From a virus (lineage: Duplodnaviria; Caudoviricetes), in the IMG/VR virus record IMGVR_UViG_2889049205_000001, positions 1 through 64,000 of that record: a DNA stretch of 64,000 bases; one strand, 5' to 3'. Positions 22,784 to 62,776 of this stretch are shown one piece after another (positions within the stretch are counted from its first letter, which is position 1; each line of letters begins with the position of its first letter). Both the position numbers and the translations under genes were made by a program. The notes beneath the pieces are model-generated. The model searched no databases. It was not told the DNA's origin and was given only the letters and a program-made list of their open reading frames with translations.

Positions 22784-22791
22784 ATGATTGT

Positions 22792-40741: not shown

Positions 40742-40747
40742 CTGCCT

Positions 40748-41501: not shown

Positions 41502-41507
41502 GAACTA

Positions 41508-41924
41508 TCACCCCAATCCGAAGGTATCGCCGACGGCGTAGAAGAGATTCCGGAAGAACCTTGATTCTACCGACGGTTCTCTGTAGTAGGCCGTGACGAT
41601 CGGAGTGCTGGCATCACCATTAATAAACTGCACCCATACCCTGTCGTTTTCTTTTAAGCCTTTGTCAATGATGCCTGTCGAATAAACAAAACAAGGGACA
41701 TCATGAAATTCCTTAACACGATTTCCCTGATTCACATGAATATCCACCGTATGTTGCGTACTCTTTTCTATGGAGGCCCCTTGATGTCTCTTGCAGCTGC
41801 AGGTATCAGCCTGCCGGTGGTAATTCACCACATAGCCGATCAGGCCGGAGGTGCGTGTATCCAGCGCACCCTCCGTTCCTGCCTTTGCGAGTTTCTGACG
41901 AAGCGGGGTTTGATCTAATGCCAT
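41508..41924 (-). CDS. Baseplate spike OB-fold protein (gp5/gpV N-terminal-like)
   Basis: GYVVNY...TVDI...DVP...NDRVWVQFINGDASTPIV motif. Confidence 0.7.
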   Translation of the reverse strand: MALDQTPLRQKLAKAGTEGALDTRTSGLIGYVVNYHRQADTCSCKRHQGASIEKSTQHTVDIHVNQGNRVKEFHDVPCFVYSTGIIDKGLKENDRVWVQFINGDASTPIVTAYYREPSVESRFFRNLFYAVGDTFGLG

Positions 41925-41930
41925 AATGCA

Positions 41931-44900
41931 TCATCCCCTGATATATGATAAGTGCAGATGATTGAAGTGATCGTTCCGCTGCGTAATCACGGTACCAGGA
42001 TACTTGGTTTTGCACGTTGCAATGACGTCTACATCCCCATGTATGATTCCGCCAAACCCGGTCTCGACTGCACAATCAATCAAGATTTCCAAATTTCTTT
42101 TTTCCTTGCTCCCTTTCGGGAACCGGTATGCTCCGGAGATGTAAGGTGCATTTGGAGTATCGACATCGCACCCGTACCCCGTTCCGTGCCAGTTTGGATC
42201 CCCAGGGCGGTAAGCACTCGTGATGGCCATTGTTTCTCCGGTGCGACTCTTATACAGCGACCCCATGCGTTCAAGCGCATTGTAGGAAGCCTGCCGGATA
42301 AGCGAAGACTCAGAAACCAATGTGAGCCTAATATTGGTCAACGGCTGCGTCTTCAGATCAATTAAGACGCTTTTGGCTTCCGCCGGCTGCACTCGGTATT
42401 TCGTGCTGCCTTGAGTTCCGAGTACCGTGACGCCATCTGCGCTCGAAGCGCTGATCGGCGGCTTGTAGTTCGGGTCCAACATGGCAATCTTCCGCATGAT
42501 TCCGGCTATACCATTCGCCCAGTTTTTGTCTGTGGCATACTTCTTGTTCATGCCGACCAGGGTTGCCCCGCCAAAATACTTTCCGTCCGGCAGAAGATAA
42601 TCCCTCTTGATCTGCTGCGCTGCGAAGTTGATGCAATGCTGCTTGCTATCGAACGTCCAGGCAGACTCATAGGGGCTTGAATCGTAGGCGCCGTATCCAA
42701 ACATGTTGTTTTTGTCCCGGAAGATCCTAGAGTCCCCCCAGCCCGTCTCCCAGGCGGCGTGAGCTGCCAGATATAAGCCGTTGATGACCCCGGCAATCTG
42801 TACCGTCTGACCCGTCTTCGGGTTTCGCACAGGCGGGATAGAAGTCTCTACAGCTACAAACGCTTGTCCTAGACCGGCCAGCGGCGTTCCGGAAAATGCC
42901 TTGTTAATCGCCTCTGCCGAGATTCCGCTCGGCGTGTTCAGATCCATGTTGGCATATCCGGTTCCTGATTGACCCGGAACAGCTACCGGATCGACCGTGT
43001 AGATTGAGTCTCGATTATTTTCCTCGTCGAGTGAATCTACTCGTTTCAGGTAGGCTTCCTGCGCTTCGATAACCTCTTGCTCATATCTTGCTTTGAACTT
43101 CTCATCGTAAGGCACTACACGACGGTGAGCTTGAATGAAGTTGGCCACAACTACATTGGGGTCATACGGCAGATTATCCGTACTCGTTTCTCCTGCAGTC
43201 TGCACCTTCGGAATGTCAAACGCATCGGTCGCCTGCTGATTGGCAGCGTACTTGGAGACGTCTGCCCCCAGGAACGAGAAGAATACCGATTGCCACTTGC
43301 CAGTGAATATACGCTGGATCAAGTCGGGCGAGTCCGTGATAACCGAGCCTTTGTGACCATTGATGCCGGCCGAGAACTCATATCCGTCCTTCTGCAGCGT
43401 CGCAATCATGCAAGCTTGCCTCGTAAAGAGGAATCGTTCCAAATACTCCGCCACGCCCGCCAAGGCCACCTCTGTGACCAGTGTTTCAATCAGCACCGGA
43501 ATGATGCCGACTCCCGTCGCAGACACAGCTCCTCGGACCGCCCAGCGACCTGCCCGCAAGCTTTTTCCGGCGATCTTTGCACCAGTGAAAGCTAGCTTTG
43601 ACGTAATGCGACGCATCTTCGCTATTTTAGTTATATTGATTTTATCATAACCCAGAATACGGTTATCACTCAAAATGTCGTCAGCCTTGTCAAAGAGATC
43701 TTCCATCTTTGAGAGCTCGAGATTGTCCAATGTCTTGATGATATCGTCCAATAGCCCACTGGCTTTCCATTTCTTTCTCGTTTCTTCCGAGATGGGATTA
43801 TATTCCCGCCACTTGCCCGTAACCTCGTCATATTCCCATATGTTCGTGCCGGCAGCCGGCTTCGGATTTACATTGAGCATTTCTTTCAGCTTATCAATGC
43901 CCTTGTCGATTTTGAATGTCTGCGTCATTTTCTTGTATTGCCGTTTGATCAAGCCCCATGCCGCATTCATGATCGGGAATGCACCCTTGTAATTCGGGTT
44001 CGCCAGAATCCCACGGAGCACCAGTGTCATGGTGAGTGCCGTGCCGATCGAGTAGCAGCTGTGCATGAAGTTCATTTGAGTCTGGTCGGAATTGACGACT
44101 ACCGCATCCGGCTTGACCATCGTTATAAAACCGAACTCCATGTTCATCATCTGCGTGACTTCCCGCACCTCTGCCGGGCCTGTGATGCTGTTCCAAGTGT
44201 CATTGATTAGCATTTGGTCGAACGGCTTGACGGCCGGTTCTCCTACGAGAGTCAGGTATCCGTCGTACATCTCTTTGACATGATCTTTGAGTCCGCTCGC
44301 TGCGATCTTAATCGCAACGCCCTCATCGTAATACCATTTAAACGGCTTGTTCAGCCATCCACCGATGAGCGGAATGTTTTGGACCAGCCGGATGCCCTGG
44401 GCGTTCAGAGTCGTGTCCAGGTTCACCGTGCGCAGCTTCTCCGGCCAGATGTTTGTATCCACGTAGATCGGCTCCGTCGTGTCCAGCTTTCCCTCGTTGT
44501 AATACGTGCCGATCGCTACGTTGTACATGTTCTGCTCGGTGGCCGTGATGCTGTTATCCATGATGTTGGTCCAGCTATCAAAGACGTGGAACTGACGGAA
44601 TGTCTTTCGGTACAGCGAGATGTTGTCATCCTCGTCCACATGATACCCAAAGGCAATCGGCATGGTTGGCTTACCGCTGAATATTGTGCTTCTGAAATCG
44701 AACGGATGCACAGCCACAACATGATCTTGCCCGATTGCTGCCGTGATGTTCAGGACGTCCCACACCGTCTTGTCATACAAGTTAATGTTGATGCCAGGCT
44801 CGTCAGCATCCCCTACCCCAAAGAAGTCTCCCATCCGGCTCCAGAACCCGACCTCCGAATTGAGTTTGCCTGTCACCTCGTAGACATTCATGTTGATCTC

Positions 44901-48173: not shown

Positions 48174-48185
48174 ATATAACACCCC

Positions 48186-51100
48186 TTACATGTGCTGCTC
48201 AACTTTATCCCGGTACCAGAGCCTCGAAAGGTTATTGGTGTTATCGGAATAGTTTACGGTCATGTTGGACTGACCTTGATATCCGCTCCGGCGCATCCCT
48301 TCTTGAACTAGGGATGACAGCCCTTGTTGCTGGTTTCCTTGCCCTCTAGCGCTAATCGAGACGTGCGCTCCGGAGCTGGGACCGCCGATCGGCGGTAAAG
48401 GTGATTGCGGCACTGGCGCTGCCTGTGGCGGCGGAGGCGGTGGAACCGGCCCAGTGTCATTACTAAGAATATTGTAACCCATTACACCACCTAAAGCTAG
48501 ACCGCCAAGCAAGGCAATTTTCTTGTTTCTTGAACCATTCGGTCCATTGAAGATGTTCTCTGGGATCCAACCGCCGGTCAGGTCGTGCATCATCTCCGGA
48601 ATAGCGCCAGCACGCTTCCCTCGAGCTTCGGATCCCATTACATTCGTTGGGTCCAGTTCGGGTTCGACATTTGGGATAGTCGGATCAATATCAGGCTCCG
48701 GAGCGGCGCCTACACCTCTTTTCATCCTGCCGAACATCCGTGTGAACTCATTAGAGGAAACCCGGTCGCCCTCTTCAAGATTACCGAAAATGGTGTCATG
48801 CACTCTTCGAAGACCTTCATTCTCCACATTAATTCCGGAGCTAGTACCAACACGGAAGCCGGAGTTGGCCAGATTGCCATTCAGGTTACGTGGCTTATCC
48901 AGTAGTCCTATCGCTTCATCGAGCCCGTGTTCTCTGGACCACATGCCGCCATAGCTCTCTTGATCGATCCGGCGCACCTTATTCCAGTCTGAAGCCAGGA
49001 AAGCGGATCGGAACTCGGACACCGGAGACTTCATATCTTCCGTGATCACTACACCGTCCTTTGCGGCGTCGATACCCTTCTGCTCCAAGGTGCTCCCGAA
49101 TTTCGAAAGGAACTTGTACTCATTCGATCCTGTTCCATACGTATGCTCAGCAAAATCTTGGATGGCCGAGTTTAAGTTTGAGATCGTACCGATCTGCGTC
49201 TTACCGATTTTGTTAGCCATTTCATTCGGCAAGTTCGGCTCCATCGGACGGATGACGGTTGTGTCCTGACCACTATACGATTTCACCGCTTCCCGCAGGT
49301 CATAATTCCGGCCGGATGTAGAGAGCTTCTTATTCCCCTCTTGCGTCAAGTAATCTCCCCAGCTGCTGTATCCGCCCATAAACTCGGCAGCCCGCTTATC
49401 TTTCAGAGCAGCCCATTCTTTCTGCACGTTGTCTTCGTCCACGTAAACCATGTGTAACTGGTCTCCGTCGGCATCCCCTTCGAGCTGGTCGCCCGTAAAG
49501 GCTGTCGTCAGCACGTTACCTGTCTTCAGCTTAGGATCGATAGCGATCCGTGTGAACTGGACGGCCGATTCGTGTTTGGATGGGTAACGGATCGTGAGCA
49601 CGTTCTTGTTCTGCTGCCGGTTCCAATCGGAGAGAATATCACTCTCTGCCGCTGTGCCAACATGCTGCTGGCCGATGATGTGCTCGTAGATGCCCATGTC
49701 CTTAGCCTGCTGCGTGGAGATGAACGTCATTTCTTCGCCGAGCATCGCCGAAGCTTCCGGACCCAGGAGCTTTAATGTGCCTGTACCCGATGACGGCATT
49801 TGCGCCTTCAGAGCTCTCTCTCCGGCCATCCCTTTAGAAGTCAGCGTGTCGGTGCCGAGTTGATTCACGTAGCTGTTGACGTTCCGCTGGATGTCTCGCA
49901 TATGCTTCAAGGCGCTGTCACGGCCGGTCTTGGATTTCGCTTCGCCATATTTCTTTATGCTGTCATTAATATTGGCGATCTGCCGCTGCAGCTTATTCAG
50001 GTGGACCAGGTCGCTCTGCCCGTCTCCCTGTAACTGCATGAACGGCACGAAAATCTTGTTGGTTTTGACTGCCGGGCTGTTCTTTCCGTTGATGTTGATA
50101 TCGACTTCTTCCGGAAGCCCCAGCCAGAATCCGTGTCCCAAATCCCGTTGATCTATACCAAGATTGTGGGCAACTGCCTGACGATCCATGATCGTATGTT
50201 TGACCGTGTTCTGGTCGAGCTCCACTTCTGGCATAAATGCGAACTCATGACCTTGAAGAATGCGGTCCTTATAGGGCTGCATTTCCGGAGCATCCGGATC
50301 TACTAGCGCTTTGATGGTGTGCGCCAAATTCTTAACGTCGCTCTGCTCAAAACGATTCTGCTTCTCCATTACGTTCCAGATATGCTCATAAGTCTGTGTG
50401 GCTCCCGATCTGCGAAGGTACCGCATCTCACGATGACCAATCGAAGTGCCATCTAAACCGTTTGCGTAAACTTTTGAGCCATCATTTGCGTTGCCGATTA
50501 CCGACCGTCCTGTTCCATCAACCGACTTGTAATACTGCCGATTGTGCATCATGCGGGTTTCCAGAATACCCGTGAATAATCCGGTGTTGGTTTGTAGCTT
50601 AGCGCCGACTTGATTGGCAATCTTGTGGAAGTCCTCAATATCAATCGGCGCCTGTCTGCTCACATCCATGAATGAACCGTTCTTGAACTCCAAGCCAATG
50701 CGGCCGAAGTCTATTTGCTCCAGCAGCTGATCCCGCTTCTTCCGATCCTGGTTCATGACATGATCGATAATCGTCTTGGCGTAGCCTTCCATCATCATCC
50801 CAAAGTCAGCACGCTTAGCTGGGTTCGGACTGATCATAGCACTGATCCCTTTGTCGCCCGTGATAGCTTCGATGAACCGAAGGCTTGGTGTAATAGCATC
50901 TGTCCCCTTCTCACCGGCAAATGAGAGCTTGAATGGTTTCTCCGACCACTCTACGCCAAATACCTGCGATCCGGTCCCCACAAGTTTGCCTGCATATCGG
51001 TTGTCGTGGCGAACATCTTCCCAAGCGCCATCGACCCATTTGCGCCCAATTACATCACCCGGCCTAACAGCCGCACCTTCGAGCCCCTGGCCACCGACAA

Positions 51101-54100
51101 CAAAATCGCTCCCCCTCGCTGCGGCACCATTGCTAGCGAAGTCTTTGTGCCACTGAAATGTTCCGTTTCCCTTATCATAGAAGTCCTGGTCCGTAACTGA
51201 CATTGAATCCATGAGTTCCTTAGCGATGACTGCTTGCTGCTCATAAACAGTCGGTATCCGGCGTGGATCGACCACTTCCTTGCCGCCTCGGTTTACGAGG
51301 ATGCCTTCTGACCGAAGCAGCCCACGGCCCTGTTCTGTATTCTGTAGATCCGTCACCCGTTTGTGAAGCTCCTCGTTAGTGATGTAGGCTACCTTGAGGT
51401 TTACTCCGGTCCGGGTCGGTCTTCCTTTTCCCTCTTGTTCTGATCGGTAGGCGGCGTTTATCTCTGTCTCGACCATTGGATTGAAGTTGGCGTAAGCGTC
51501 AATCTTCGAGAGACGGCCAGCCACCTCATCAGAGATCATGTACATATTTTGGGACTGAATAGCATTCGGCCGCCCCATGTTAGTGTAATGTCCGTACAGC
51601 GTCATGTCCCGCATGTCCATGGTGGACATTGAGCCCTGTTGAACTCGTCCGTCTTTTACTGACGATACGTACAGGTTGGGGGTGCCCCCATCCCAGCGAA
51701 CTCGGTTGTTCCAATCGCTCATGCCCATTCGTATCTGAAATTGCTTGCTCATGTTTACGTCATCGATCGTCAGGAGCTGCTTCACCTTGCGACTGCGATC
51801 CTTCGAGTCGTAATAGAAAGCAGAATCGTTCAGGTCCCCTTCGGACAACTCTTTGGATTCCAGCATGCTGTGCAACATGGCCGGCATGACGTTGATGTGC
51901 GATTGCTTCATGAAGTCGGATTTGTTGCCTGACCAATCGTAGGTGTCGTTGAAATTATAGATATCTCGCTGCCCGCCAGCCAGGTTTGAGATTGAATCTC
52001 GTAATGTCCGATTGCTCCGGTAGGACGCCTTTTCGTAATCATCTTCGTCCAGCGCTGACAAGATGCCGTCCATACCATGGGCGTATCGCATGCCAATGAT
52101 TTCGGCTGTGGACTTACGAACAGCAGAACCTTTGCCGTCCTGCTCCTTTTCCCATACCGCCACCGTGTGAGCGATCATCCGCTGCTTATTGAGCACCTGC
52201 ATACCATCCTGGTTGATCAGTGGGATCAAAATCTCAACAGCCCTCGGGTGTGTCTTTCCTTCGAGCAGCGCTTCTCGGACGCTTGTGCTGTATTGCGGCT
52301 TGTATACTGTGATCTTCGCCATAGGCGAGTTAATATCTTGATTTACGCTGAGGTCGTACATGATGTTGCGGCCGGAGTTATTCAGTGACTGCAGTACGCT
52401 CTCGACGGCGCCTCGGTTGTTTGCCTTTAGCCCCGACAGGTGATTTGTTTCCAAGGACTCGAAGAACATTTCGGCGTCCGCATGCAGATTAACTTTGCCA
52501 CCCATCGTAAAGGCCTGGCCTTGATAGCTCAGGGTTTTGCGAATCGCCTCTCCTACGATGCTTTGGTTTCTTGCCCCGGTGATTCTCGACATATCACGAG
52601 CTTCAAGCGATGTTGTTTCCGGCGACTCCAGCGGAATGTTCTTGCTGTGCAGGTCCATAGCGATGCGAACCACGGTATCATTGATTTGGCCATTGCTTTG
52701 TGCAATAATGCCGTACCGCTTCTGAAGCTCGGAACCAATTAGGCCATTTTCATGCAGTCCATTTATGAACTGTGTCATCCGGTGCTGCTGTGTCAGCGGG
52801 TTATTGGAATCGTCCTGCTGAATATATCTGCGGATCGCACGTTCTGTTTGCTGCACGGACTGCATGCTGAAGAATCGCTCATCCCCATCTACATTTAAAC
52901 GGAATCCTCGATTCTCCCATGATGCCATCTCACGAGCGCCTACGTGCCGGCCTGCAGCATCATCTCGGCTTACCCCTTGTGTGTACAGGCGCCATGCAAT
53001 ATCTCGCTGCTGCCGAGCAGCTGCTCGCTCTGATGACGTCATGCTGTCCAGGATCGGAATCTGTTGTTCAATAGTGCGGATCGCCTCCTGGAACACAGGC
53101 CGCTCGCTGCGCAGACGAGGCGCCATCCGGTAGAACAGCTTCTCTTCGTCAATATTGTGGCCCCACTGCAGCTGGCCGTTAGCAAAGCCCACCGGCTTAC
53201 TGTTGAAGTCGAGCATGCTGCGATAACTATCGTTGCTGCGGTACGGCTCGACCTCTGCTCGGATCTGAGCCTCATACTTAGAGTAGAGGCTATTCAATAC
53301 GTTAGGATCTGTAGATCCCATAGAGCTGTATTCGGCGAGCGCAAGCGCTTGTGCTTTGGCTGCGATATTCTTCTGCTTGGCGCCCAGACGCTTTTCGTAA
53401 TGCTCCGTGTTCTCGTACATCCGCTTGGCAGCATCGAATCCAGCAGTACGACTCTCGCCGCCGGCACCTGATAAACTGGACATCCGTTCGTATCTGCGGC
53501 GAGCAAGGTCGGTTTCTCGGATCCGTCGGATTTCTGCCTGCTCGTCCTTGCTCATGCCGTTTACGTTATGGAAGCGGCTTTGCACGAACTGGGCAATCTG
53601 ATGCATGGAGTTCGGGCCCTGCCGGGTCACGTAACTGTATCGGTCATTATCGGAATCGAAGAGTTCCAGCACATGGCCATTTATTACGCCCTTATCATCT
53701 GTCAGCTCACGGACGCCATTGACGGTGTACAAAGTGCGAGCATTGATGACCGTGCGATTCCAGGAGACATCGTGCATCGCCATCTTGCCATCTTCAAGCC
53801 TGGCTTGAAAATCGAGATTGTCATCTCCGTAGGCTGCGTAACCGTTTGAGGCGAACAGCTTATCGCCTTTCTTGAGCACTTCTTTCTTGTTCCAAGTGAA
53901 TTCGGATGGCCGGATATTCATGCCTTCCATGGCACCACGGTTTTTGGCCGCATTGATTTTGTTATGAACCTTTGGCAGCGTTTTGTTGATTACTCCACCG
54001 AGACCCCGCTCATCAACGTCGGCGATCGCCGCATGCGCATCATCGCCGTCAATCCCCAGTGTTCGTCTAACCTCATGCATGGACAGGTAGCCCTGCTGGA

Positions 54101-55109
54101 AATATCGCCCCTTCATAACACCTTTGCCGCCGAACTCTTGATGGAAGTCAACCGGGTTGGCGTAAGCTGTCTGCAGTACCCGGAAATAGTCCACATGATT
54201 TTGAGGGCGGGCAATGGTCTGGCCAGTCTTCTTGCCGAACCGGTCCAGTGTCTCCAAGTCGAAGTTCTCCCCGTTGTAGGAGAAGAATGTCTGATCGGCG
54301 TGGCCTTGAACGAAGGTACGGTATTTACGCATCTGGTTGGCGACGGAATGCTTGTCACTCAGGCCGACAAGGTTGTTATAGCCGGACTGGATATGATCCC
54401 GATACATGTCGAAATTGAGAATGAATTTCTGATAACTGTACCGACCATTCATATCCTCAAGGCTCTTGATGATCGTATTATGCGAAAGCGTAGACTCGTT
54501 TAGGTTCGCTGCCTGCAGACCGGCTCCCGAGAGTGTCGAGTAGCGCATAAGGTTAACGATGGATCGGCGCTCAGCGTCGCTCATGTTGTTGAAAGCGAAT
54601 TTGTCCATTTTGATCCGGCGGATCAGAGAATCCAGATAGAGCTGGCTTTCTTTGTCCGGCTTGACTAGGAGGCTCAATTGCCGCCGGTTGTCGGCTTTGA
54701 AAAGTCCATCTTTGGTCTTTTGGAAACCCTGAATCGCAATCTCTGGAACGTGCAGGCCTTTTCCTGATGCTTCATCCCCGAGAGACTCGATATCGAAGGC
54801 GTAAAATACGTTGCTCTGCCCGCTCATGAACTTCTGGAATGCCTCAACCTGCTTTTGTCCCAGCTGCTGATGTGGGCTGCTGAAGTTCTTCAAAATAACA
54901 CTACCGCTCGACTTGATCGTTTTCTGATCCAAGATCGGAGTGTCGTTGATGGCACTTAGTACCCGACTGACCCGATCCTCTCGAGTCGGGTCGTTATCGT
55001 ATGATGCCTTTCGGGTTGCATGGAATGACGATAGCAGCGACCATTGCTGTGAAGCAGGGGTGGCCATCGGAATCCCTGTATTGTCAAAACCGTTTATTTT
55101 GTCATTCAT
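48186..55109 (-). CDS. Single-polypeptide two-barrel (beta/beta'-like) DNA-dependent RNA polymerase fused to an N-terminal DEDDh exonuclease, with a C-terminal hydrophobic segment (2307 aa); putative virion RNAP
   Basis: Colinear beta motifs (GRPNAIQSQ, GVNLKVAY, KLSFAGEKG, ISPNPAKRADFG, GHREMRYL) followed by beta' motifs (SKGMAGERAL, VLTIRYPSKH, EGDADGDQL). Exonuclease motifs FDIES, YNGENFD and HAAIAD. Confidence 0.85.
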   Translation of the reverse strand: MNDKINGFDNTGIPMATPASQQWSLLSSFHATRKASYDNDPTREDRVSRVLSAINDTPILDQKTIKSSGSVILKNFSSPHQQLGQKQVEAFQKFMSGQSNVFYAFDIESLGDEASGKGLHVPEIAIQGFQKTKDGLFKADNRRQLSLLVKPDKESQLYLDSLIRRIKMDKFAFNNMSDAERRSIVNLMRYSTLSGAGLQAANLNESTLSHNTIIKSLEDMNGRYSYQKFILNFDMYRDHIQSGYNNLVGLSDKHSVANQMRKYRTFVQGHADQTFFSYNGENFDLETLDRFGKKTGQTIARPQNHVDYFRVLQTAYANPVDFHQEFGGKGVMKGRYFQQGYLSMHEVRRTLGIDGDDAHAAIADVDERGLGGVINKTLPKVHNKINAAKNRGAMEGMNIRPSEFTWNKKEVLKKGDKLFASNGYAAYGDDNLDFQARLEDGKMAMHDVSWNRTVINARTLYTVNGVRELTDDKGVINGHVLELFDSDNDRYSYVTRQGPNSMHQIAQFVQSRFHNVNGMSKDEQAEIRRIRETDLARRRYERMSSLSGAGGESRTAGFDAAKRMYENTEHYEKRLGAKQKNIAAKAQALALAEYSSMGSTDPNVLNSLYSKYEAQIRAEVEPYRSNDSYRSMLDFNSKPVGFANGQLQWGHNIDEEKLFYRMAPRLRSERPVFQEAIRTIEQQIPILDSMTSSERAAARQQRDIAWRLYTQGVSRDDAAGRHVGAREMASWENRGFRLNVDGDERFFSMQSVQQTERAIRRYIQQDDSNNPLTQQHRMTQFINGLHENGLIGSELQKRYGIIAQSNGQINDTVVRIAMDLHSKNIPLESPETTSLEARDMSRITGARNQSIVGEAIRKTLSYQGQAFTMGGKVNLHADAEMFFESLETNHLSGLKANNRGAVESVLQSLNNSGRNIMYDLSVNQDINSPMAKITVYKPQYSTSVREALLEGKTHPRAVEILIPLINQDGMQVLNKQRMIAHTVAVWEKEQDGKGSAVRKSTAEIIGMRYAHGMDGILSALDEDDYEKASYRSNRTLRDSISNLAGGQRDIYNFNDTYDWSGNKSDFMKQSHINVMPAMLHSMLESKELSEGDLNDSAFYYDSKDRSRKVKQLLTIDDVNMSKQFQIRMGMSDWNNRVRWDGGTPNLYVSSVKDGRVQQGSMSTMDMRDMTLYGHYTNMGRPNAIQSQNMYMISDEVAGRLSKIDAYANFNPMVETEINAAYRSEQEGKGRPTRTGVNLKVAYITNEELHKRVTDLQNTEQGRGLLRSEGILVNRGGKEVVDPRRIPTVYEQQAVIAKELMDSMSVTDQDFYDKGNGTFQWHKDFASNGAAARGSDFVVGGQGLEGAAVRPGDVIGRKWVDGAWEDVRHDNRYAGKLVGTGSQVFGVEWSEKPFKLSFAGEKGTDAITPSLRFIEAITGDKGISAMISPNPAKRADFGMMMEGYAKTIIDHVMNQDRKKRDQLLEQIDFGRIGLEFKNGSFMDVSRQAPIDIEDFHKIANQVGAKLQTNTGLFTGILETRMMHNRQYYKSVDGTGRSVIGNANDGSKVYANGLDGTSIGHREMRYLRRSGATQTYEHIWNVMEKQNRFEQSDVKNLAHTIKALVDPDAPEMQPYKDRILQGHEFAFMPEVELDQNTVKHTIMDRQAVAHNLGIDQRDLGHGFWLGLPEEVDININGKNSPAVKTNKIFVPFMQLQGDGQSDLVHLNKLQRQIANINDSIKKYGEAKSKTGRDSALKHMRDIQRNVNSYVNQLGTDTLTSKGMAGERALKAQMPSSGTGTLKLLGPEASAMLGEEMTFISTQQAKDMGIYEHIIGQQHVGTAAESDILSDWNRQQNKNVLTIRYPSKHESAVQFTRIAIDPKLKTGNVLTTAFTGDQLEGDADGDQLHMVYVDEDNVQKEWAALKDKRAAEFMGGYSSWGDYLTQEGNKKLSTSGRNYDLREAVKSYSGQDTTVIRPMEPNLPNEMANKIGKTQIGTISNLNSAIQDFAEHTYGTGSNEYKFLSKFGSTLEQKGIDAAKDGVVITEDMKSPVSEFRSAFLASDWNKVRRIDQESYGGMWSREHGLDEAIGLLDKPRNLNGNLANSGFRVGTSSGINVENEGLRRVHDTIFGNLEEGDRVSSNEFTRMFGRMKRGVGAAPEPDIDPTIPNVEPELDPTNVMGSEARGKRAGAIPEMMHDLTGGWIPENIFNGPNGSRNKKIALLGGLALGGVMGYNILSNDTGPVPPPPPPQAAPVPQSPLPPIGGPSSGAHVSISARGQGNQQQGLSSLVQEGMRRSGYQGQSNMTVNYSDNTNNLSRLWYRDKVEQHM

Positions 55110-55120
55110 ATCCCCACATC

Positions 55121-58100
55121 CTAAACAATGGAATCCATATTGTACTTCAGGTACGAGTCGATCTCACGGCTCCGGTCTTCTTGATAGTCCATATTGATTC
55201 GGGATCCACCGTCACTGGCCGGAGTCACGGTCACTTGCACGTCCCATAGACCCTGACCATTCAGAACTTCTCGGATGTTGCGCTGCATGTCCCTGTATCC
55301 TCTAAAGTTGCTTTTGCCCGGACCGTTTCCACCTTCGTACATGTCCGGCAGCATGGCAGCCGACTGGACATCATCATCCCAGAAGTTGTAGTCGCTCAAA
55401 TCGATGCCTGCATCTTGAACAGCTTTTACCTGGTAATCTTCCAGGTTTACGTCCGGCTGCCAGCCGACCCAATTCTCATCAGGCAAGAACTTATCCTTGA
55501 AGTATTCTTCCAGTGGAACTTGATCCTCCAGCTCGTAACCCCAAAGGGCTTTGAGGACCCGTCCTTCGTTGTCCGGAACCAGATCCAAAATCCGCTGCTG
55601 ATCTTGAAGTCTGGCTTCTGCGAACTCATTGAAGAACCATTTATCCTTATATGGCATGGACCGCATGACCTTCATCCGGTCTTCGTAAGGATCGACGGCG
55701 TAGAGAGTCGTTTCAGCCTGTTCCTTATAGTTCAGTGCTTGAAGCACGGCATTAGGCAGGTACATCTCGTCCCTATCTTCCGTGATTAAGTTGAGCTGTG
55801 CATTGATCTCAGCTTTTCGATCTTCCCATCCTGCAGGTTGGTTCAAGTAAAGGTTTCGTTTCTCGTCCTGCAGCTCTTGCCGCTTGGCCTTGTTCATTTC
55901 TTTTTTCATGTCCCGGTCGTTAGCGATCGCCTCAACATCAATTCCCTGCTGATGCAGCTCCTCCTTCGCCCTTTCGTACAGGCCGGAGAATTTCATATAT
56001 TTCAGAACATCGAAATACTCGTTGATGTCTTGCTCTTTACGGCGTCGTTCTGGAATCCAGGTTTCACCGGTCTGTGCCTCATGAGCTGATCGCCAAATAC
56101 TGCCGGCAGCGAAAGCGGCCGATGTGGCTCCCATGATCTTGAGATGCCGGAACCCGCTTTTTCCTCGTCCAAACATAAAAATGGCTGGAAGAGCTGAAAA
56201 CATGAGTCCCGCTCCAGCGGCGAACAACACATTACCACGGATACCGGATTGATAGGCTGGGACAACGTAGTCATCAACCATGAAGTTGTCCCACGTCGCC
56301 CAGTCCTTTCCATAGATGTGATCCCGCTCGTATTCTTCCAAAGCTGTTCGGACCGGGAGGAACTTGGAGTTGAGAAAGGTATCGGCGTGCGCCATGGTTT
56401 CCCACCGGCGTCCTTGCGCAATCTCGCCTTTTGTGAATCGGGCATGGACGCCTGCAGCCGTGAAATCCGTCTCATTCTCTCTCATCTGCCCGTTTCGAAT
56501 AATCGTTTGGTTAACATTTTCAAGCCCTTTGAAGACGACAGCTCGCATCGTATTATATGAATCGTCGGAGCTGCGTCTGGATGGATCAGCGCTGATCCCG
56601 ATCGTCACCTTGTCGCCAACCTTAAAGTAAGATTGGAGAACACCCTCAGCTTTGGCTTGATATTTCATGCCGGCAAGTCGAATCGGCGTATCCGGCATCT
56701 CCTCGGTAAGGAAGGTGTAATCATCAAGGAACTTAGACACCGTGACCTTTTGCTTCTCAATATCGTTGTCCTTGAACCGGTAATCCGTAAATTCATATTT
56801 CGCTTTTCGCTTGGATACCTGGTCCTTTATGATTGCAGCTTGTCGGCGCAGCTCTGTGTCCTTGTTGTTGTCCTCGACATAATCCTTCCAGTAGCGATAC
56901 TCGTCGCTCCACGGCGCCACGTCAGCCAGGATCTTGAACTTATCGAAAGCGCCATAGTTCCCTGTCTCATCCGGATGAAGTTGGTTTACTCGCTCATAGG
57001 CTTCGCCTGGGAGTCTGTACTCACCATGTGCAATCTTCTGGTACGGATCACCCGTCTGGAAGTTGATGAAATACCCGCCACCGGGCATCCAGTCTGGCAT
57101 CGTATTTCGGATCGGATTAAACGTATCGAGCTGGCCACTGTCTCTTCTGATAAAACGACGCATAATCTCGGATACATCGCCGCCAGCGCCGCCCAGGTTT
57201 GATTCCCAAAACGCATTGGAAATGTTGGTGGCCGCATCGGCTTTTTGAATGATCATCTTATTCTTGTAAGGATCTCCGCCAATCAGCTCTTCAGCTGCGT
57301 ATTTATAAATACCGAGCGGCTCTGTCCAGTTTTCAAAGGCTTCTTGACTCTGCCATTCGAGGCTCGTCGGGTCTTGCAGGTTCCGCAGTTTACGGTTGAC
57401 GACTTCCTGGCGATATACAAAATCTTGATCAAACATAGCCCGTGGCTTGGTGTCTACCGTTGGAACGGGCTCCGCAGCCATGGCGAACATTTTGTTGATT
57501 GGCATGTTTTGTTTGGCCACATTCGAAGGCACGTAGATGGTGCTACTCGTCGCCGCATCTTGCATGACATAGGCGCCGGTAGCCGATCCGTTATTATCCA
57601 GCTCATTGCTGATGAAGTACCTTGTCGGGTAGCTGCCGGCTTTAGATTCAGCGAGGCGGGCCTTGCCATCCTCAATGTTTGCCATGGCCTGACTGCTCAC
57701 AGTCTGCTGCGGCCGACTGCTGTCGAAATAGGCACCGTATTGGTCCGGGGTCGCTTGAACGACATGCTCCATTCGACCACCCGGCGACACCTTGGTTAAG
57801 ATCGGATCTGCCGGCCGTTCGGCCAATTGATCAGCCTGCTCCTGCACCAACACTGGATCACTCCAGTATTCAGTGTGCATCTGTCTAACTGGCTTCACGA
57901 CTTGGCCAAGCGCAGCGTTTCCGAGATCCCCAAAGACCATTGTGTTTGGGTTGAATAGCGATCCGGTAAGCATGTACGGCCGATCGTAATAGTGCTTGTT
58001 TTCCCACCAATATTTGTCCTCTTCGGAGTTGAACAAGTTGCGGGCAACGCCCAGCGGGTTCTCTAGTGTCGGGAACGCCGAGTGCTCCCAGCGCTCTTGC

Positions 58101-61057
58101 ATCGTAGAGGTCACGCTTGTGTACTCCCAGTCACTCATCGCAAGACGGTACGAGTTTGGTCTGAACTCAGTGATCCGCTCGCCCCGGTAAGCGCCCTTGG
58201 AGCCGAACAACCACCAGCGGCCTTTACGCACTTCGTCAGATCCGTTTTGGTAGTAATCGTACATTTCCTCTTGCGAATAGGCGTCTCGTTCATCTACCGG
58301 AGACCCGCCAGTTGCGATAAAGCCGGCAAGTCGGGTTGCGCTGGCTCGGCCAAACCCTGGAAGATATACTTCCGGACCGCCGCTGAAATGCTCTGCTCCT
58401 GGGTGGAGCATCATGCGTCGCTTGAGCACCTCGGTCTGACCAGTTGCATCACGGGCCGCCGCCTTGTTGAGCTCGGTTGTTGCCTTATATATTTCCCAGC
58501 GGTCTGAGATGCTCTGACCAGTTAACTGCTCGGACTTATCATCGATATAATCCGCATAGGTCGGGATCGCTACGACCGGCAGGAACCGCTTCAGCAGCAG
58601 TGAAGACCACATTTGCAGCCTATTCCCCATTGAAGCATCGGACAATCCCAGCCCTACGCTGCCAAGCGCATCTTGCAGACGGTATGGAATATAGGACATG
58701 TAAGCCGAGAACGTCGTATAATCTTCCATGTTGCGTCGCCCTGTTCTCGGGTCCCATTGTTTTGCGAAGTCCTTGATGCCGCTCCATGAGGAGAATTGAT
58801 TCATAAAACCATTTTCGAATGACATGTTAACGGCCAGGTAATCGTCACCGAACTCATTCACCGGCCGGCTGCCGGAGAACCGCTCCCACATTGGATTCGT
58901 CTTCTTGGTCATCCCAATGACGTGGGATCTAAATGCGGTGTCTCCTGTAAACAGGTTATTGACCCGCTCTAGTGCATCGTCGGTTGCCGAGTAGATCGTT
59001 CGACCTTCTCGAAGGAACTCATAATGCGCATAGAGGTCATTGGCTTCACGCATGTCTTTTCCACGGATGTCTCCACTTTTCTCGAGAGATCTCATAAGAT
59101 CACGGAAACCTTGCTTCGGCCCGGACTTCACTTCCATCATCTGACGGATGAGTTCCAAACTGACCTGCTGATTGATCTGATCCATACCGGTTTGAACCCT
59201 GGTATATTCGCCTGCCAGAAGGTTCGCCTCGCCGATCGGATTGATCCGGCCAAGCACGCCCTCTCGGTTCTGATCGAATTGCCGCCAGAGGTTCCGTATG
59301 CCTTCATTCGCACCTTTGGCCGCCGAATTGGATGATGAGAACGCACCGTTCCCTTGTGGAACTTTCATCTTCGGATTACCCAGGTACTCGAAGAGCTTGA
59401 GCATGTCATCGTCTCGGTTGAAGTTGATGTTGTTATCCTTGACGAATTTTTGGATATGCTGCGGCATATGGCTCTGGATCTGATTGAGCACACGAGGCGA
59501 AAAGCCGGATGTGTATTTCTCGAAATAACCACGGGCCTTGAAGAAGCCTTTGTAATCGACACCCTCTCGCACAGCCTTATCAATCATGTTCCGCTCCCAC
59601 TCCGGGTTGAAGAACTTGCCGGCGACACTGAACCATGCCTGCGCAGTGGTATCTTTGTTCTGATCGCCAAGGTCGAAGATCCGCTTAAACAGGTTTCGAT
59701 CTTTTCCTTCACTGCCCATGCCCGCTGTAGCACGAACCATCCGTGCCTGCGTGCCGAATTGTGATGAGGTCAGTCGGACCTTACGCTTCTTGTTAAGAAT
59801 TTCAAGGGGCTCATCTGCAGCTCCATTGTCGAAGAGGTTGTAGAAGCGGCCATTGAAATACATAGCTTCTTCCTTGAGCGTCTCATTGTTAGCCAGCCCC
59901 CTTTGCGCATTGAGGATTGGCTGGATGCCGCCTCGGTTAAACATCCGGAAAGGAGTATCTCGTCTAGCCTTCCTCGCATTCAGCACATCCCGCACATGGC
60001 CAATCCCGCCGAATATGGTCGGCGACCACCACTCCATCGTCCGTTCCTTAATGTCGTCAAAGGTTTTGTAGTCGAAGAAGTCATGTGCTTTGCCATCAGC
60101 ATTGATGCGGACATACAAATGCTCGTCGAATACGGCTTGTCCGAACTTCTGGTTGTTCGATCGGATACGCTCCAGGTTGATCTTCGTATCCGTGTCGATT
60201 TTCATGCGTCCGGAGCTGTTAAGCTCCAGGATATCATCGATTGTCGCTTGACGGTGGCCACGAATGGCCTCTTTAATGCCGCCTTGTTTGCGAGTGAGCT
60301 CATGCATTTCGCTCATGGCCAGGTCACGGAATTTACGCTGCATCCGATCAACACGAGCCTGCATCTGCTGTCCCTGCTGGTTGACGTTAAAGTTCCGGTG
60401 TGCTGCTCTTGCTTGGATTACCGCATCCTGAATGCTCTTATCCTCAATGCCTCCATGCTTTGCTAACGTCGCCCGGATCTCCCGGTCATGCGCATACTTC
60501 AATGAGAAATTGCCTTTGCTGATGTTACTGCGCTTGTGGAAGGCGGTGGTCACTTTATTAACGGTGTCTTCCGATAGTCCATGCTTACTACGCAAGTCAT
60601 CCATGATGGCATTGAACCGCATGCCTTCTTCGATATGCGAAGGAATCTCCCGGTCCACGAAGTTGTTCATTTGGCGGACGATCCGCTGCATATCGTATTC
60701 CCGATGAGTGCCCTGACGCATGGCTTCTGCCCGCTCCTGCACATTTGTACGGTAACGCTCACGGAACTCTCCATTTCGATGGACCACGTTCATCATGCCC
60801 CGGCCGTCCATCATGGCGACTTCCTCTGCAGCCTGCCGGGCAGCCTTGCCTTGCACCTCGATAAATTGTGCCATTCTGCGCATACCGCCCGTCCGGTGAG
60901 CAAGCGTCATAGCAATAGCACCAATTCCTACGCCAATTCCAACTTTGGCCAGCATCGGCATCTCCTGGCGTTCATCTTCAGATGCCAGGAATCGAGACAT
61001 CGGCCTAGTGTCTCGATCCAAGTATGCGGAAAACTGATTCTCTTGATCTTCTGGCAT
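55121..61057 (-). CDS. Tape-measure-like / ejected protein (~1978 aa) with hydrophobic segments and a degenerate thermonuclease (SNase)-like domain
   Basis: Follows the tail chaperones; largely helical; TM-like stretches at the N-terminus and near aa 1610-1660; VSKFLDDYTF...IRLAG...DSYNTMRAVVF...NVNQTIIRNG. Confidence 0.72.
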   Translation of the reverse strand: MPEDQENQFSAYLDRDTRPMSRFLASEDERQEMPMLAKVGIGVGIGAIAMTLAHRTGGMRRMAQFIEVQGKAARQAAEEVAMMDGRGMMNVVHRNGEFRERYRTNVQERAEAMRQGTHREYDMQRIVRQMNNFVDREIPSHIEEGMRFNAIMDDLRSKHGLSEDTVNKVTTAFHKRSNISKGNFSLKYAHDREIRATLAKHGGIEDKSIQDAVIQARAAHRNFNVNQQGQQMQARVDRMQRKFRDLAMSEMHELTRKQGGIKEAIRGHRQATIDDILELNSSGRMKIDTDTKINLERIRSNNQKFGQAVFDEHLYVRINADGKAHDFFDYKTFDDIKERTMEWWSPTIFGGIGHVRDVLNARKARRDTPFRMFNRGGIQPILNAQRGLANNETLKEEAMYFNGRFYNLFDNGAADEPLEILNKKRKVRLTSSQFGTQARMVRATAGMGSEGKDRNLFKRIFDLGDQNKDTTAQAWFSVAGKFFNPEWERNMIDKAVREGVDYKGFFKARGYFEKYTSGFSPRVLNQIQSHMPQHIQKFVKDNNINFNRDDDMLKLFEYLGNPKMKVPQGNGAFSSSNSAAKGANEGIRNLWRQFDQNREGVLGRINPIGEANLLAGEYTRVQTGMDQINQQVSLELIRQMMEVKSGPKQGFRDLMRSLEKSGDIRGKDMREANDLYAHYEFLREGRTIYSATDDALERVNNLFTGDTAFRSHVIGMTKKTNPMWERFSGSRPVNEFGDDYLAVNMSFENGFMNQFSSWSGIKDFAKQWDPRTGRRNMEDYTTFSAYMSYIPYRLQDALGSVGLGLSDASMGNRLQMWSSLLLKRFLPVVAIPTYADYIDDKSEQLTGQSISDRWEIYKATTELNKAAARDATGQTEVLKRRMMLHPGAEHFSGGPEVYLPGFGRASATRLAGFIATGGSPVDERDAYSQEEMYDYYQNGSDEVRKGRWWLFGSKGAYRGERITEFRPNSYRLAMSDWEYTSVTSTMQERWEHSAFPTLENPLGVARNLFNSEEDKYWWENKHYYDRPYMLTGSLFNPNTMVFGDLGNAALGQVVKPVRQMHTEYWSDPVLVQEQADQLAERPADPILTKVSPGGRMEHVVQATPDQYGAYFDSSRPQQTVSSQAMANIEDGKARLAESKAGSYPTRYFISNELDNNGSATGAYVMQDAATSSTIYVPSNVAKQNMPINKMFAMAAEPVPTVDTKPRAMFDQDFVYRQEVVNRKLRNLQDPTSLEWQSQEAFENWTEPLGIYKYAAEELIGGDPYKNKMIIQKADAATNISNAFWESNLGGAGGDVSEIMRRFIRRDSGQLDTFNPIRNTMPDWMPGGGYFINFQTGDPYQKIAHGEYRLPGEAYERVNQLHPDETGNYGAFDKFKILADVAPWSDEYRYWKDYVEDNNKDTELRRQAAIIKDQVSKRKAKYEFTDYRFKDNDIEKQKVTVSKFLDDYTFLTEEMPDTPIRLAGMKYQAKAEGVLQSYFKVGDKVTIGISADPSRRSSDDSYNTMRAVVFKGLENVNQTIIRNGQMRENETDFTAAGVHARFTKGEIAQGRRWETMAHADTFLNSKFLPVRTALEEYERDHIYGKDWATWDNFMVDDYVVPAYQSGIRGNVLFAAGAGLMFSALPAIFMFGRGKSGFRHLKIMGATSAAFAAGSIWRSAHEAQTGETWIPERRRKEQDINEYFDVLKYMKFSGLYERAKEELHQQGIDVEAIANDRDMKKEMNKAKRQELQDEKRNLYLNQPAGWEDRKAEINAQLNLITEDRDEMYLPNAVLQALNYKEQAETTLYAVDPYEDRMKVMRSMPYKDKWFFNEFAEARLQDQQRILDLVPDNEGRVLKALWGYELEDQVPLEEYFKDKFLPDENWVGWQPDVNLEDYQVKAVQDAGIDLSDYNFWDDDVQSAAMLPDMYEGGNGPGKSNFRGYRDMQRNIREVLNGQGLWDVQVTVTPASDGGSRINMDYQEDRSREIDSYLKYNMDSIV

Positions 61058-61216
61058 CTGTTGCACCTCGCTTATGGCAATGGGCAGCCGGCTTTTTCAT
61101 ACCAGATCTGGAAGAAGATCTCCCAGGCATCTTGAATGCACCATCTGCCCTCTCCGTATTTTCGATTCACCCTGGGGTCCTTATAGATCAGCGATATCTG
61201 CTCATGTAACTGCATA

Positions 61217-61357: not shown

Positions 61358-61383
61358 GACCATCACCTCATATCCTTCGTTAT

Positions 61384-62758: not shown

Positions 62759-62776
62759 TGCTTTTATCCCCCTAAC

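What the first reader, a model, noticed from the sequence alone, without database searches (positions are those of the whole stretch)
41931..61057. Three-giant entry cassette: RNAP encoded between the tape-measure-like gene and the hub/lysin
Seen: three closely spaced ~2000-aa genes occupy the slot between the tail chaperones and the spike/gp25/J genes, with gaps of about a dozen nt and no promoter or terminator between them. The RNAP is therefore co-expressed with late structural proteins. Established: this slot normally holds the tape measure and hub proteins, and virion-packaged RNAPs (N4, crAss-like, phiKZ-like) are made late and injected. Inference: the RNAP is loaded into the tail lumen or head and ejected with the TMP-like protein after the lysin domains open the peptidoglycan. 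That would give host-independent early transcription and possibly transcription-driven genome uptake. An RNAP in the tape-measure position of a contractile tail would be an unusual system.
Basis: inference. Interest (0 to 1): 0.88.

Follow-up and report, generated by a model that had tools for sequence, protein, structure and literature searches.

The report
Tail-operon giant exonuclease–RNA polymerase protein
In the tail genes of a ~212-kb contractile-tailed phage, the middle of three giant genes encodes a 2,307-residue protein that joins a proofreading-type exonuclease to a single-chain cell-type RNA polymerase, so the phage probably carries its own transcription enzyme into the host, which has been shown only in a few very different phages.

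Summary
Three minus-strand genes (55121-61057, 48186-55109, 41931-48173; 1978, 2307 and 2080 aa) lie 11 and 12 nt apart. They sit between the tail-chaperone pair and the spike/baseplate genes of a 0305phi8-36-like jumbo myophage (contig C3).

The middle giant is a real two-barrel RNA polymerase:
- Residues 1150-2150 fold confidently (pLDDT 89).
- The first half matches RNAP beta/Rpb2 subunits (Z 15) and the second half matches beta'/Rpb1 (Z 10-11).
- K1394, K1401, R1841, P1843 and D1879-x-D-G-D1883 are invariant in 39 divergent relatives.

- An invariant DEDDh 3'-5' exonuclease at residues ~95-390 (Z 14.5).
- A C-terminal module shared with 0305phi8-36 gp146, which its GenBank record lists as a virion protein found by mass spectrometry.
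- A second, YonO-like RNAP at C3:99362-103045.

The three-giant order is conserved in all four distant metagenomic relatives examined and in cultured Bacillus phages KLEB27-3 and WH1; phage Edson also carries the middle giant, though I did not check its flanking genes. None of these proteins is annotated as an RNAP.

Virion packaging and ejection remain inferred. The idea is not unprecedented: Thermus siphovirus P23-45 has a tape-measure-fused virion RNAP (PMC10770324). This scan has already reported the same family on other DNA.

Verdict: a new variant of a known kind, and directly testable.

The parts
62264..62785 (-). Tail-chaperone-like gene A (173 aa), gp143-like
   Evidence: phrog_29362 E 1e-18. 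It is a paralogue of the next gene, like the gp143/gp144 pair of 0305phi8-36 (PMC2147016).
61384..62205 (-). Tail-chaperone-like gene B (273 aa), gp144-like
   Evidence: phrog_29368 and phrog_29362, E ~4e-9.
61072..61387 (-). Two small ORFs (56 and 47 aa) that fill the apparent gap upstream of giant 1
   Evidence: function unknown
55121..61057 (-). Giant 1 (1978 aa from the ATG), orthologue of 0305phi8-36 gp145, a virion protein. It has hydrophobic segments at residues 36-58 and 1611-1634. It is a candidate tape measure or ejection protein by position only.
   Evidence: BLASTP against gp145: E 4e-116 and 8e-67. gp145 is annotated as found in virions by MS. Hydropathy. No Pfam or PHROG hit.
48186..55109 (-). 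Giant 2 (2307 aa): exonuclease, middle region of unknown fold, beta-beta' RNAP core, C-terminal anchor module
53940..54827 (-). DEDDh 3'-5' exonuclease domain of giant 2 (residues ~95-390). D106, E108, N279, D284, H359 and D364 are invariant.
   Evidence: Alignment A3, 37 sequences. AF2 pLDDT 86. VIA Z 14.5 to E. coli Exo I and 14.4 to Pol III epsilon. A family member passes Pfam RNase_H_2 and nearly passes RNase_T.
48660..51662 (-). Two-barrel RNAP core of giant 2 (residues 1150-2150). The beta-like half is ~1150-1585 and the beta'-like half is ~1603-2150.
   Evidence: AF2 pLDDT 89.1, pTM 0.88. Foldseek gave at least 500 PDB matches; every listed row is an RNAP entry, mostly beta'/Rpb1 chains. 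VIA Z 15 to beta/Rpb2-type chains and Z 10-11 to beta'/Rpb1 chains.
50907..50930 (-). Beta-type basic pair K1394...K1401 (motif FK-LSFAGE-KGT)
   Evidence: Invariant in 39 sequences.
49461..49475 (-). Catalytic metal-binding loop D1879-A-D-G-D1883, preceded by R1841-x-P1843
   Evidence: Invariant in all 39 aligned sequences; every full-length family member carries one (P0029 two) D-x-D-G-D match at the equivalent C-terminal position. The family profile also hits the NADFDGD region of host RpoC in related genomes.
48189..48662 (-). C-terminal module of giant 2 (residues 2150-2307): hydrophobic helix at 2198-2217, Pro-rich linker and a conserved tail. It is shared with RNAP-less middle giants.
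   Evidence: HMM match to the gp146 C-terminus (E 4e-14) and to Moorella CDS0031 (E 6e-14). Hydropathy. Alignment A4.
41931..48173 (-). Giant 3 (2080 aa): baseplate hub with lysin, orthologue of 0305phi8-36 gp147
   Evidence: phrog_20474 1226 bits. tblastn hits to MTATph1, KLEB27-3, WH1 and 0305phi8-36 hub genes.
42486..42788 (-). Glucosaminidase domain of giant 3 (residues 1799-1899)
   Evidence: Pfam PF01832, E 2.7e-13, above the curated cut-off.
39881..41924 (-). Four small baseplate and spike-region genes that follow the giants, including gp25-like and J-like proteins
   Evidence: phrog_975 baseplate protein; phrog_6 baseplate wedge, E 8e-16; weak Baseplate_J hit. Same order as 0305phi8-36 gp148-151.

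Best explanation
Giant 2 is a single polypeptide with three parts. First comes an active DEDDh 3'-5' exonuclease. Then comes a complete beta-then-beta' two-barrel RNA polymerase core of the cellular type. Last is a short C-terminal hydrophobic and Pro-rich module, which it shares with the RNAP-less giants at the same position in related phages. It is translated from the tail operon together with giant 1 (gp145-like) and giant 3 (hub with lysin). I infer that it is built into the virion, most likely at or inside the tail/baseplate through the shared C-terminal module, and is ejected when the tail contracts and the hub lysin opens the wall. It would then transcribe the first phage genes without host RNAP. 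A second, YonO-like RNAP encoded at C3:99362-103045 would take over later, as in the virion/non-virion RNAP pairs of P23-45, phiKZ and N4. Shown here: the domain identities, intact catalytic residues, operon structure and conserved synteny. Inferred: virion packaging, ejection, the early-transcription role and the role of the exonuclease.
For: RNAP identity:
- AF2 model of residues 1150-2150 has pLDDT 89 and pTM 0.88.
- Foldseek gave at least 500 PDB matches; all listed are RNAP entries, mostly beta'/Rpb1 chains, with E ~1e-6.
- VIA scores: Z 15.0 to phiKZ nvRNAP and Pol IV second-largest subunits over model 1-435; Z 10-11 to Rpb1/beta' over 454-1001; Z 10.4 to QDE-1; Z 9.0 to P23-45 gp96.
- Invariant K1394, K1401, R1841, P1843, D1879, D1881, G1882 and D1883 in 39 sequences of 17-60% identity.
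- The family profile hits the host RpoC catalytic loop.

Exonuclease: all six DEDDh residues are invariant, with Z 14.5 to Exo I and Pol III epsilon.

Tail-module membership: gaps of 11 and 12 nt. The G1-G2-G3-baseplate order is the same in all four distant relatives examined and in phages KLEB27-3 and WH1.

Virion link: the C-terminal module matches gp146 at E 4e-14. GenBank records gp145 and gp146 as found in virions by MS. The orthologues are deposited as '(virion) structural protein'.

Second RNAP: a 1227-aa protein with the motif GGADNDGD matches 0305phi8-36 gp99 (YonO-like) at E 4e-10. Atlas clusters carrying PF05183 score 0.97.

Precedent for the logic: P23-45 gp96 and gp64 (PMC10770324).
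Against: - No direct evidence that this protein, or any RNAP-bearing orthologue, is in virions. The 'structural protein' labels may be annotation by position or homology, and I could not read the phage papers.
- The MS evidence concerns gp146, which shares only the exonuclease and the C-terminal module and has no RNAP motif.
- Residues ~20-2140 are predicted as compact folded domains. It is not obvious how these fit a tail lumen, so a head location or non-packaging remains possible.
- 0305phi8-36 and MTATph1 do without the RNAP module, so it is not essential to this tail architecture.
- No promoter set for this enzyme has been identified.
Confidence: 0.6

Rival explanations
1. Giant 2 is itself the tape measure, as assumed for gp146 since 2007, with the exonuclease and RNAP as embedded cargo. 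This would be the P23-45 arrangement transplanted to a contractile tail. The protein would sit extended or metastable in the tube and refold after ejection.
For: It occupies the gp146 position and shares the gp146 C-terminus. It has a C-terminal hydrophobic segment. P23-45 gp96 shows that an RNAP can be part of a tape measure. Hardies et al. assigned the tape-measure role to orf146 from tail length.
Against: Almost the whole chain is predicted as globular alpha/beta domains at pLDDT 86-89, with no long helical ruler segment. Giant 1, not giant 2, directly follows the chaperone genes. gp96 has ~3800 residues of tape-measure body, and giant 2 has nothing comparable.
Confidence: 0.15
2. Giant 2 is not packaged. 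It is a late-expressed intracellular enzyme, for example a late-gene transcriptase or a replication or primer-processing enzyme, that merely resides in the tail operon.
For: No direct virion evidence exists for any RNAP-bearing member. It is a large folded enzyme. A second RNAP exists, so the division of labour could be reversed.
Against: The position between two virion giants is strictly conserved across relatives with as little as 17-19% identity. The C-terminal module is shared with the MS-detected gp146. A late-made transcriptase that is not packaged would have little left to transcribe.
Confidence: 0.15
3. The two-barrel module is not a DNA-dependent transcriptase. Together with the proofreading-type exonuclease it may act as another kind of polymerase: RNA-templated, primer-making, or a PolD-like DNA polymerase.
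For: DEDDh exonucleases usually accompany DNA polymerases. The two-barrel fold also includes RdRPs (QDE-1 Z 10.4). That archaeal PolD is also two-barrel is from my own knowledge.
Against: The best structural matches by a clear margin are DNA-dependent RNAP beta and beta' subunits (Z 15 and 10-11). No PolD chain is among the 50 best rows. The exonuclease also occurs without the polymerase in gp146 and MTATph1, so the two modules are separable.
Confidence: 0.06
4. The polymerase fold is a catalytically dead structural relic.
For: None specific.
Against: All catalytic-type residues are 100% conserved in sequences as low as 17% identical, and the DxDGD window is the best conserved 100-residue block.
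Confidence: 0.02

Closest known systems
Thermus phage P23-45 gp96, tape-measure-fused virion two-barrel RNAP, with non-virion RNAP gp64 (Chaban et al. 2024, PMC10770324; PDB 8H2M/8H2N)
   Same: A single-chain two-barrel RNAP with DxDGD, encoded in the tail tape-measure region. It was hidden from sequence searches. It is paired with a second, non-virion two-barrel RNAP elsewhere in the genome. Related phages lack the RNAP module. The folds are related (Z 9.0).
   Different: P23-45 is a siphovirus; this is a contractile-tailed jumbo phage. The gp96 RNAP is N-terminal and followed by ~3800 residues of genuine tape measure. Here the RNAP is in the C-terminal half, preceded by a DEDDh exonuclease, with no ruler-like body. 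The core here resembles multisubunit beta and beta' chains more (Z 15 and 10-11) than gp96 (Z 9). The family profile gave no PDB sequence hit, which includes gp96.
0305phi8-36 gp146 ('hypothetical tape measure protein', virion protein by MS) and Moorella phage MTATph1 CDS0027-0031
   Same: Same genomic position between gp145-like and hub giants. Shared DEDDh exonuclease motifs and a shared C-terminal ~130-220 residues.
   Different: They have no DxDGD or DxDxD motif and no match to the RNAP region. The exonuclease sits mid-protein in gp146. The Moorella gene is split, with a transposase gene in the gap.
crAss-like phage phi14:2 gp66 and N4 vRNAP (virion RNAPs within giant proteins)
   Same: Giant, late-made, packaged and injected RNAPs used for early transcription. 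gp66 is also two-barrel (and my own knowledge).
   Different: Both are podoviruses with capsid-borne cargo. N4 vRNAP is T7-like, not two-barrel. gp66 is not among the 50 best VIA rows for the RNAP-core model. Neither has a fused exonuclease.
YonO (SPbeta) and 0305phi8-36 gp99 RdRP-like single-chain RNAPs
   Same: Single-chain two-barrel RNAPs of Bacillota phages with DxDGD.
   Different: They are ~840-1220 aa, non-structural, and related to PF05183. This replicon has its own gp99 homologue at C3:99362-103045. Giant 2 gives no PF05183 signal and is structurally closer to beta and beta' subunits.
Multisubunit RNAP beta and beta' (including phiKZ and AR9 non-virion RNAPs)
   Same: Best structural matches. 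Beta-then-beta' order. Shared motifs: K...K, the GxRxxEME-like block (R1560, E1561), RxP...DxDGDQ.
   Different: Giant 2 is fused into one chain and much reduced, with no alpha, omega or sigma partners evident. It is embedded in a tail-operon giant with an exonuclease.

Membership tests
Two-barrel (DPBB) RNA polymerase superfamily | Beta'-type DPBB carrying the D-x-D-x-D metal-binding loop | tested here: met
   D1879-A-D-G-D1883 is invariant in 39 of 39 sequences. The DPBB fold at model residues 622-754 matches DPBB domains at Z 7-8 and beta'/Rpb1 chains at Z 10-11.
Two-barrel (DPBB) RNA polymerase superfamily | Beta-type DPBB supplying two basic residues | tested here: met
   K1394 and K1401 are invariant. 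Model residues 1-435 match beta/Rpb2-type subunits at Z 14-15.
Two-barrel (DPBB) RNA polymerase superfamily | Invariant R-x-P upstream of the Asp triad (Rpb1 R446/P448; PMC2919709) | tested here: met
   R1841 and P1843 are invariant. They align to the host RpoC motif NRAPTLHR.
Two-barrel (DPBB) RNA polymerase superfamily | Fourth acidic residue of the beta-type barrel (Rpb2 D837 equivalent) | tested here: inconclusive
   E1290 is always acidic (97% E) and E1400 is 92% acidic.
Two-barrel (DPBB) RNA polymerase superfamily | Templated RNA synthesis | not testable with these tools
   Needs a biochemical assay.
Tape-measure-fused virion RNAP (P23-45 gp96 type) | RNAP covalently joined to a long tape-measure body | tested here: not met
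   Residues ~20-2140 are predicted as compact domains. Only ~150 C-terminal residues remain: a hydrophobic helix, a Pro-rich linker and a conserved tail.
Tape-measure-fused virion RNAP (P23-45 gp96 type) | Presence in virions and transcription of pre-early genes | not testable with these tools
   Only indirect evidence: gp146 MS annotation, shared C-terminus, and 'structural protein' labels.
Tape-measure-fused virion RNAP (P23-45 gp96 type) | Companion non-virion two-barrel RNAP | tested here: met
   A 1227-aa YonO/gp99-like protein lies at C3:99362-103045.
YonO / RdRP-like RNAPs (PF05183) | Sequence match to PF05183 or to YonO-type proteins | tested here: not met
   Giant 2 has no Pfam hit, whole or in segments. 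QDE-1 scores Z 10.4, below the beta subunits at Z 15.
DEDDh 3'-5' exonucleases (DnaQ/RNase T superfamily) | Exo I (DxE), Exo II (NxxxFD) and Exo III (HxxxxD) motifs on an RNase H-like fold | tested here: met
   D106, E108, N279, D284, H359 and D364 are invariant in 37 sequences. Z 14.5 to Exo I and 14.4 to Pol III epsilon.
Phage tail tape measure proteins | Gene directly after the chaperone pair; long, mostly helical, extended protein | tested here: not met
   Giant 1 and two small ORFs lie between the chaperone genes and giant 2. Giant 2 is predicted as multidomain alpha/beta.

The most novel reading that the evidence does not exclude
None of the three giants is a simple ruler. Together they form a tail-delivered enzymatic entry machine. 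The hub lysin opens the wall. The DEDDh exonuclease resects the first DNA end to enter, exposing a single-stranded template or promoter. The tethered RNAP transcribes it and so helps draw in the 212-kb genome. This would be a nuclease-coupled transcription motor injected through a contractile tail.
Probability: 0.12. Interest if true: 0.9.

Novelty: new variant of a known kind. Interest (0 to 1): 0.7.

Why it matters
- It would extend tail-module (tape-measure-slot) virion RNA polymerases from one Thermus siphovirus group to a deep lineage of contractile-tailed jumbo phages of Bacillota.
- It would reinterpret a protein class treated since 2007 as a 'hypothetical tape measure'.
- It would add an unrecognised single-chain beta-beta' RNAP family fused to a proofreading-type exonuclease.
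- The family gets no Pfam hit, no PHROG hit and no PDB sequence hit, so it is missed in phage annotation. This matters for predicting which phages are independent of host RNAP.
- Three cultured Bacillus phages (KLEB27-3, WH1, Edson) carry it, so the packaging, ejection and transcription claims can be tested directly.

Tried and rejected
- Pfam, PHROGs and PDB sequence searches with whole giant 2 or with family profile A1 gave nothing for the RNAP. The fold had to be predicted.
- tblastn of giant 2 and megablast of the cassette against INPHARED phages gave no match. The cultured relatives were found only through the hub gene and a family HMM.
- The search for related loci on species genomes: A2 was too divergent to seed and A1 found no relative.
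- A sample of 200 genomes of the host family held no copy outside G000. The six marginal hits (E ~9e-4) fall at the profile's DxDGD region in ~1,000-1,250-aa frames; the one I translated is rpoC.
- PF05183 search of the window's own genome rang nowhere, controls included, so it is uninformative.
- tblastn of the second RNAP against phages gave no match, and there was no PDB sequence hit. Its identity rests on pairwise BLASTP to gp99 and on Atlas features.
- Sequencing runs: none was listed and no RNA holder was listed.
- Literature: searches for KLEB27-3, WH1 and MTATph1 papers found nothing usable. The 0305phi8-36 proteomics paper PMC2171028 is not held. [quoted passage not shown]
- Giant 1 domains: no Pfam hit. 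An Atlas SNase lead scored only 0.76.
- The giant 3 C-terminal HxxxxxxD/HxH peptidase-like motif has no Pfam or PDB support.
- Residues ~500-1150 of giant 2 fold well, but the match lists were filled by exonuclease hits, so their fold was barely tested.
Full report
CONTEXT. The window is the first 64 kb of contig C3 (228,841 bp, 50% GC) of an assembly whose chromosome is 7.05 Mb at 55% GC. C3:1-17066 repeats at 211772-228837 with 99.94% identity. The unique genome is therefore about 212 kb, with either a long terminal repeat or an untrimmed assembly overlap. All long ORFs in the window are on the minus strand. Just beyond the window lie a tail sheath (phrog_16991, E 3.5e-174) and tube genes. 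The gene order is sheath, tube, tube paralogues, two paralogous chaperone-like genes, three giants, small spike and baseplate genes, and a J-like gene. This matches Bacillus phage 0305phi8-36 gp139-gp151. C3 is a 0305phi8-36-like jumbo myophage genome.

OBSERVATION. The three ORFs are at 55121-61057, 48186-55109 and 41931-48173 (1978, 2307 and 2080 aa from RBS-supported ATGs). They are separated by 11 and 12 nt that contain only Shine-Dalgarno sequences. Consensus promoter hits are at chance level. The ~318 nt upstream of giant 1 holds two small ORFs rather than a regulatory gap.

GIANTS 1 AND 3. Giant 1 is the orthologue of 0305phi8-36 gp145 (BLASTP E 4e-116 and 8e-67). The GenBank record marks gp145 as a virion protein found by mass spectrometry. 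Giant 3 is the hub-lysin: phrog_20474 scores 1226 bits, a Pfam glucosaminidase domain covers residues 1799-1899, and it has homology to gp147 and other hubs.

GIANT 2 IS AN RNA POLYMERASE. No sequence library recognises it. An exhaustive profile search of 1.84 billion representatives found 48 relatives, about 38 of them full-length at 1873-2729 aa. Every full-length relative carries a D-x-D-G-D match at the equivalent C-terminal position (one has a second, unrelated match), and most show an FDIETxG-type Exo I motif near the N-terminus.

In a 39-sequence alignment with 17-60% identity to the query, the invariant residues are Q1185, K1394, K1401, T1403, E1561, R1841, P1843, D1879, D1881, G1882, D1883, G1974 and K2017. 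[quoted passage not shown]

AlphaFold2 on this alignment gives pLDDT 89.1 and pTM 0.88 for residues 1150-2150. Foldseek returns at least 500 PDB matches; all the listed rows are RNAP entries, mostly beta'/Rpb1 chains. An exhaustive structural scan splits the model cleanly:
- Residues 1-435 of the model match second-largest subunits: phiKZ and AR9 non-virion RNAP, Pol IV, ASFV, Pol I and bacterial beta, at Z 14-15.
- Residues 454-1001 match largest subunits, at Z 10-11.
- The single-chain enzymes QDE-1, P74 gp62 and P23-45 gp96 match across both halves at Z 9-10.4.

As a check by sequence alone, the family profile hits frames of about 1,000-1,250 aa in six genomes of the host's family (E ~9e-4). 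The one I translated is RpoC, and the match covers its NRAPTLHR...NADFDGDQ segment.

THE REST OF GIANT 2. Residues 1-1160 also fold confidently (pLDDT 85.8). Residues ~95-390 are a DEDDh exonuclease: Z 14.5 to E. coli Exo I and 14.4 to Pol III epsilon. All six motif residues (D106, E108, N279, D284, H359, D364) are invariant in 37 sequences. Residues ~500-1150 are folded, but their fold was barely tested. The last ~150 residues hold a hydrophobic helix (2198-2217), a proline-rich stretch and a conserved tail.

RELATION TO THE 'TAPE MEASURE' OF 0305phi8-36. gp146 occupies the same position, is annotated as a hypothetical tape measure, and was found in virions by MS. It shares only two things with giant 2: an exonuclease segment that sits mid-protein, and the C-terminal ~220 residues (HMM E 4e-14). 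It has no DxDxD motif at all. Moorella phage MTATph1 is similar. Its exonuclease is in CDS0027, its C-terminal module is in CDS0031 (E 6e-14), and a transposase gene lies between them. Hardies et al. had already noted that only the last ~60 residues of orf146 align with its counterparts in the related elements BtI1 and BwK1. So the conserved parts of the middle giant are the exonuclease and the C-terminal module, and the RNAP is a module present in one large branch of the lineage. This mirrors the P23-45 group, where some relatives lack the RNAP part of the tape measure.

SYNTENY AND CULTURED MEMBERS. Four distant relatives (P0010 from Alicyclobacillus shizuokensis; P0041, P0043 and P0026 from metagenomes) all sit between a giant of up to ~2500 aa (cut by the contig end in P0043's locus) and a ~1900-2200-aa hub giant. 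The hub's lysin domain varies (glucosaminidase, Peptidase_M23, SLT). Small baseplate genes follow. A family HMM identifies KLEB27-3 gp034 (E 2.6e-192, ADYDGD) and WH1 gp095 (E 4.2e-141, ADHDGD) as full-length members, and phage Edson has one too. They are deposited as 'structural protein', 'virion structural protein' and 'hypothetical protein'. Database names for other members are 'hypothetical protein' or 'PolB exonuclease-like'. BFVD adds structural relatives labelled 'minor tail protein', plus uncharacterised proteins of Acinetobacter phage ME3 and Microcystis phage MaMV-DC.

A SECOND RNAP. C3:99362-103045 (+) encodes a 1227-aa protein with the motif GGADNDGD. It matches 0305phi8-36 gp99, the YonO/RdRP-like 'hypothetical DNA-directed RNA polymerase', at E 4e-10 across the catalytic region. 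It resembles Atlas clusters carrying PF05183 (score 0.97). gp99 in turn hits SPbeta-type phages. The phage thus has two unrelated two-barrel RNAPs, one in the tail operon and one among non-structural genes.

MECHANISM. Shown: the domain identities, intact active sites, tight operon and conserved position. Inferred: giant 2 is made late with the tail proteins, incorporated through the C-terminal module it shares with the virion protein gp146, ejected on contraction, and used for host-independent first transcription, with the YonO-like enzyme acting afterwards. The exonuclease occurs with or without the RNAP, so it probably has its own role at entry, such as end processing or attack on host nucleic acids. 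That role is speculative. Which giant measures the tail is open. Giant 2 lacks any ruler-like region, and giant 1 directly follows the chaperone genes.

COMPARISON AND NOVELTY. The closest known system is P23-45 gp96 with gp64 (PMC10770324), found by my literature search. Differences are tail type, domain order, the exonuclease fusion, the absence of a tape-measure body, and closer structural similarity to multisubunit beta and beta' chains. In the searchable library, only that work (paper and its preprint) combines 'two-barrel' with 'tape measure'. Earlier notes of this scan describe the same exonuclease-RNAP giants on other DNA, with the same closest-known system. They are AI notes and are not independent evidence. 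I class this as a new variant of a known kind.

Noticed in passing
window 1-17066 (= C3:211772-228837): The first 17,066 bp of the contig repeat at its end with 99.94% identity. The boundary falls inside the 2193-aa ORF at 16204-22785. This is either a long terminal repeat or an untrimmed overlap of a circular or permuted genome, so the unique length is about 211.8 kb.
   Followed up: partly
C3:99362-103045 (+), outside the window (L014:1363-5046): A second two-barrel RNAP of 1227 aa with motif GGADNDGD. It is a homologue of 0305phi8-36 gp99 (YonO/RdRP-like) and the likely non-virion partner of giant 2.
   Followed up: partly
L002:11775-19131 (Moorella phage MTATph1): The middle giant of this phage is split. 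The exonuclease part is in CDS0027 and the C-terminal module is in CDS0031, with a transposase gene between them. It has no RNAP motif.
   Followed up: partly
window 55121-61057, giant 1 residues ~1430-1560: A stretch looks like a staphylococcal-nuclease/OB-type domain without the usual catalytic residues. The Atlas feature search gives an SNase cluster at only 0.76, and Pfam finds nothing. An earlier scan note on a related phage also mentions nuclease folds in this giant.
   Followed up: partly
window 41931-42230, giant 3 residues ~1985-2080: The C-terminal end carries H-x6-D and H-x-H spacing reminiscent of LAS-type (VanY/M15-like) peptidases. That would make a second lysin after the glucosaminidase. 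Pfam and PDB sequence searches give no support.
   Followed up: partly
window 10750-14244, 16204-22785, 33425-37075 (minus strand): Further very large structural-module ORFs (1164, 2193 and 1216 aa) lie downstream of the baseplate genes. They are probably fibre or decoration proteins, as in 0305phi8-36.
   Followed up: no
BFVD entries A0A172Q021, A0A172Q0S6 (Acinetobacter phage vB_AbaM_ME3) and A0A075BUT7 (Microcystis phage MaMV-DC): Uncharacterised proteins of unrelated large myophages match the giant 2 RNAP-core model (Foldseek E 1e-10, 2e-5 and 3e-8). Hidden single-chain two-barrel RNAPs may be more widespread among large phages.
   Followed up: no
C3:93348-93429: An ~80-nt segment is 94-95% identical to four chromosomal sites. 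It is most likely a tRNA gene carried by the phage.
   Followed up: no
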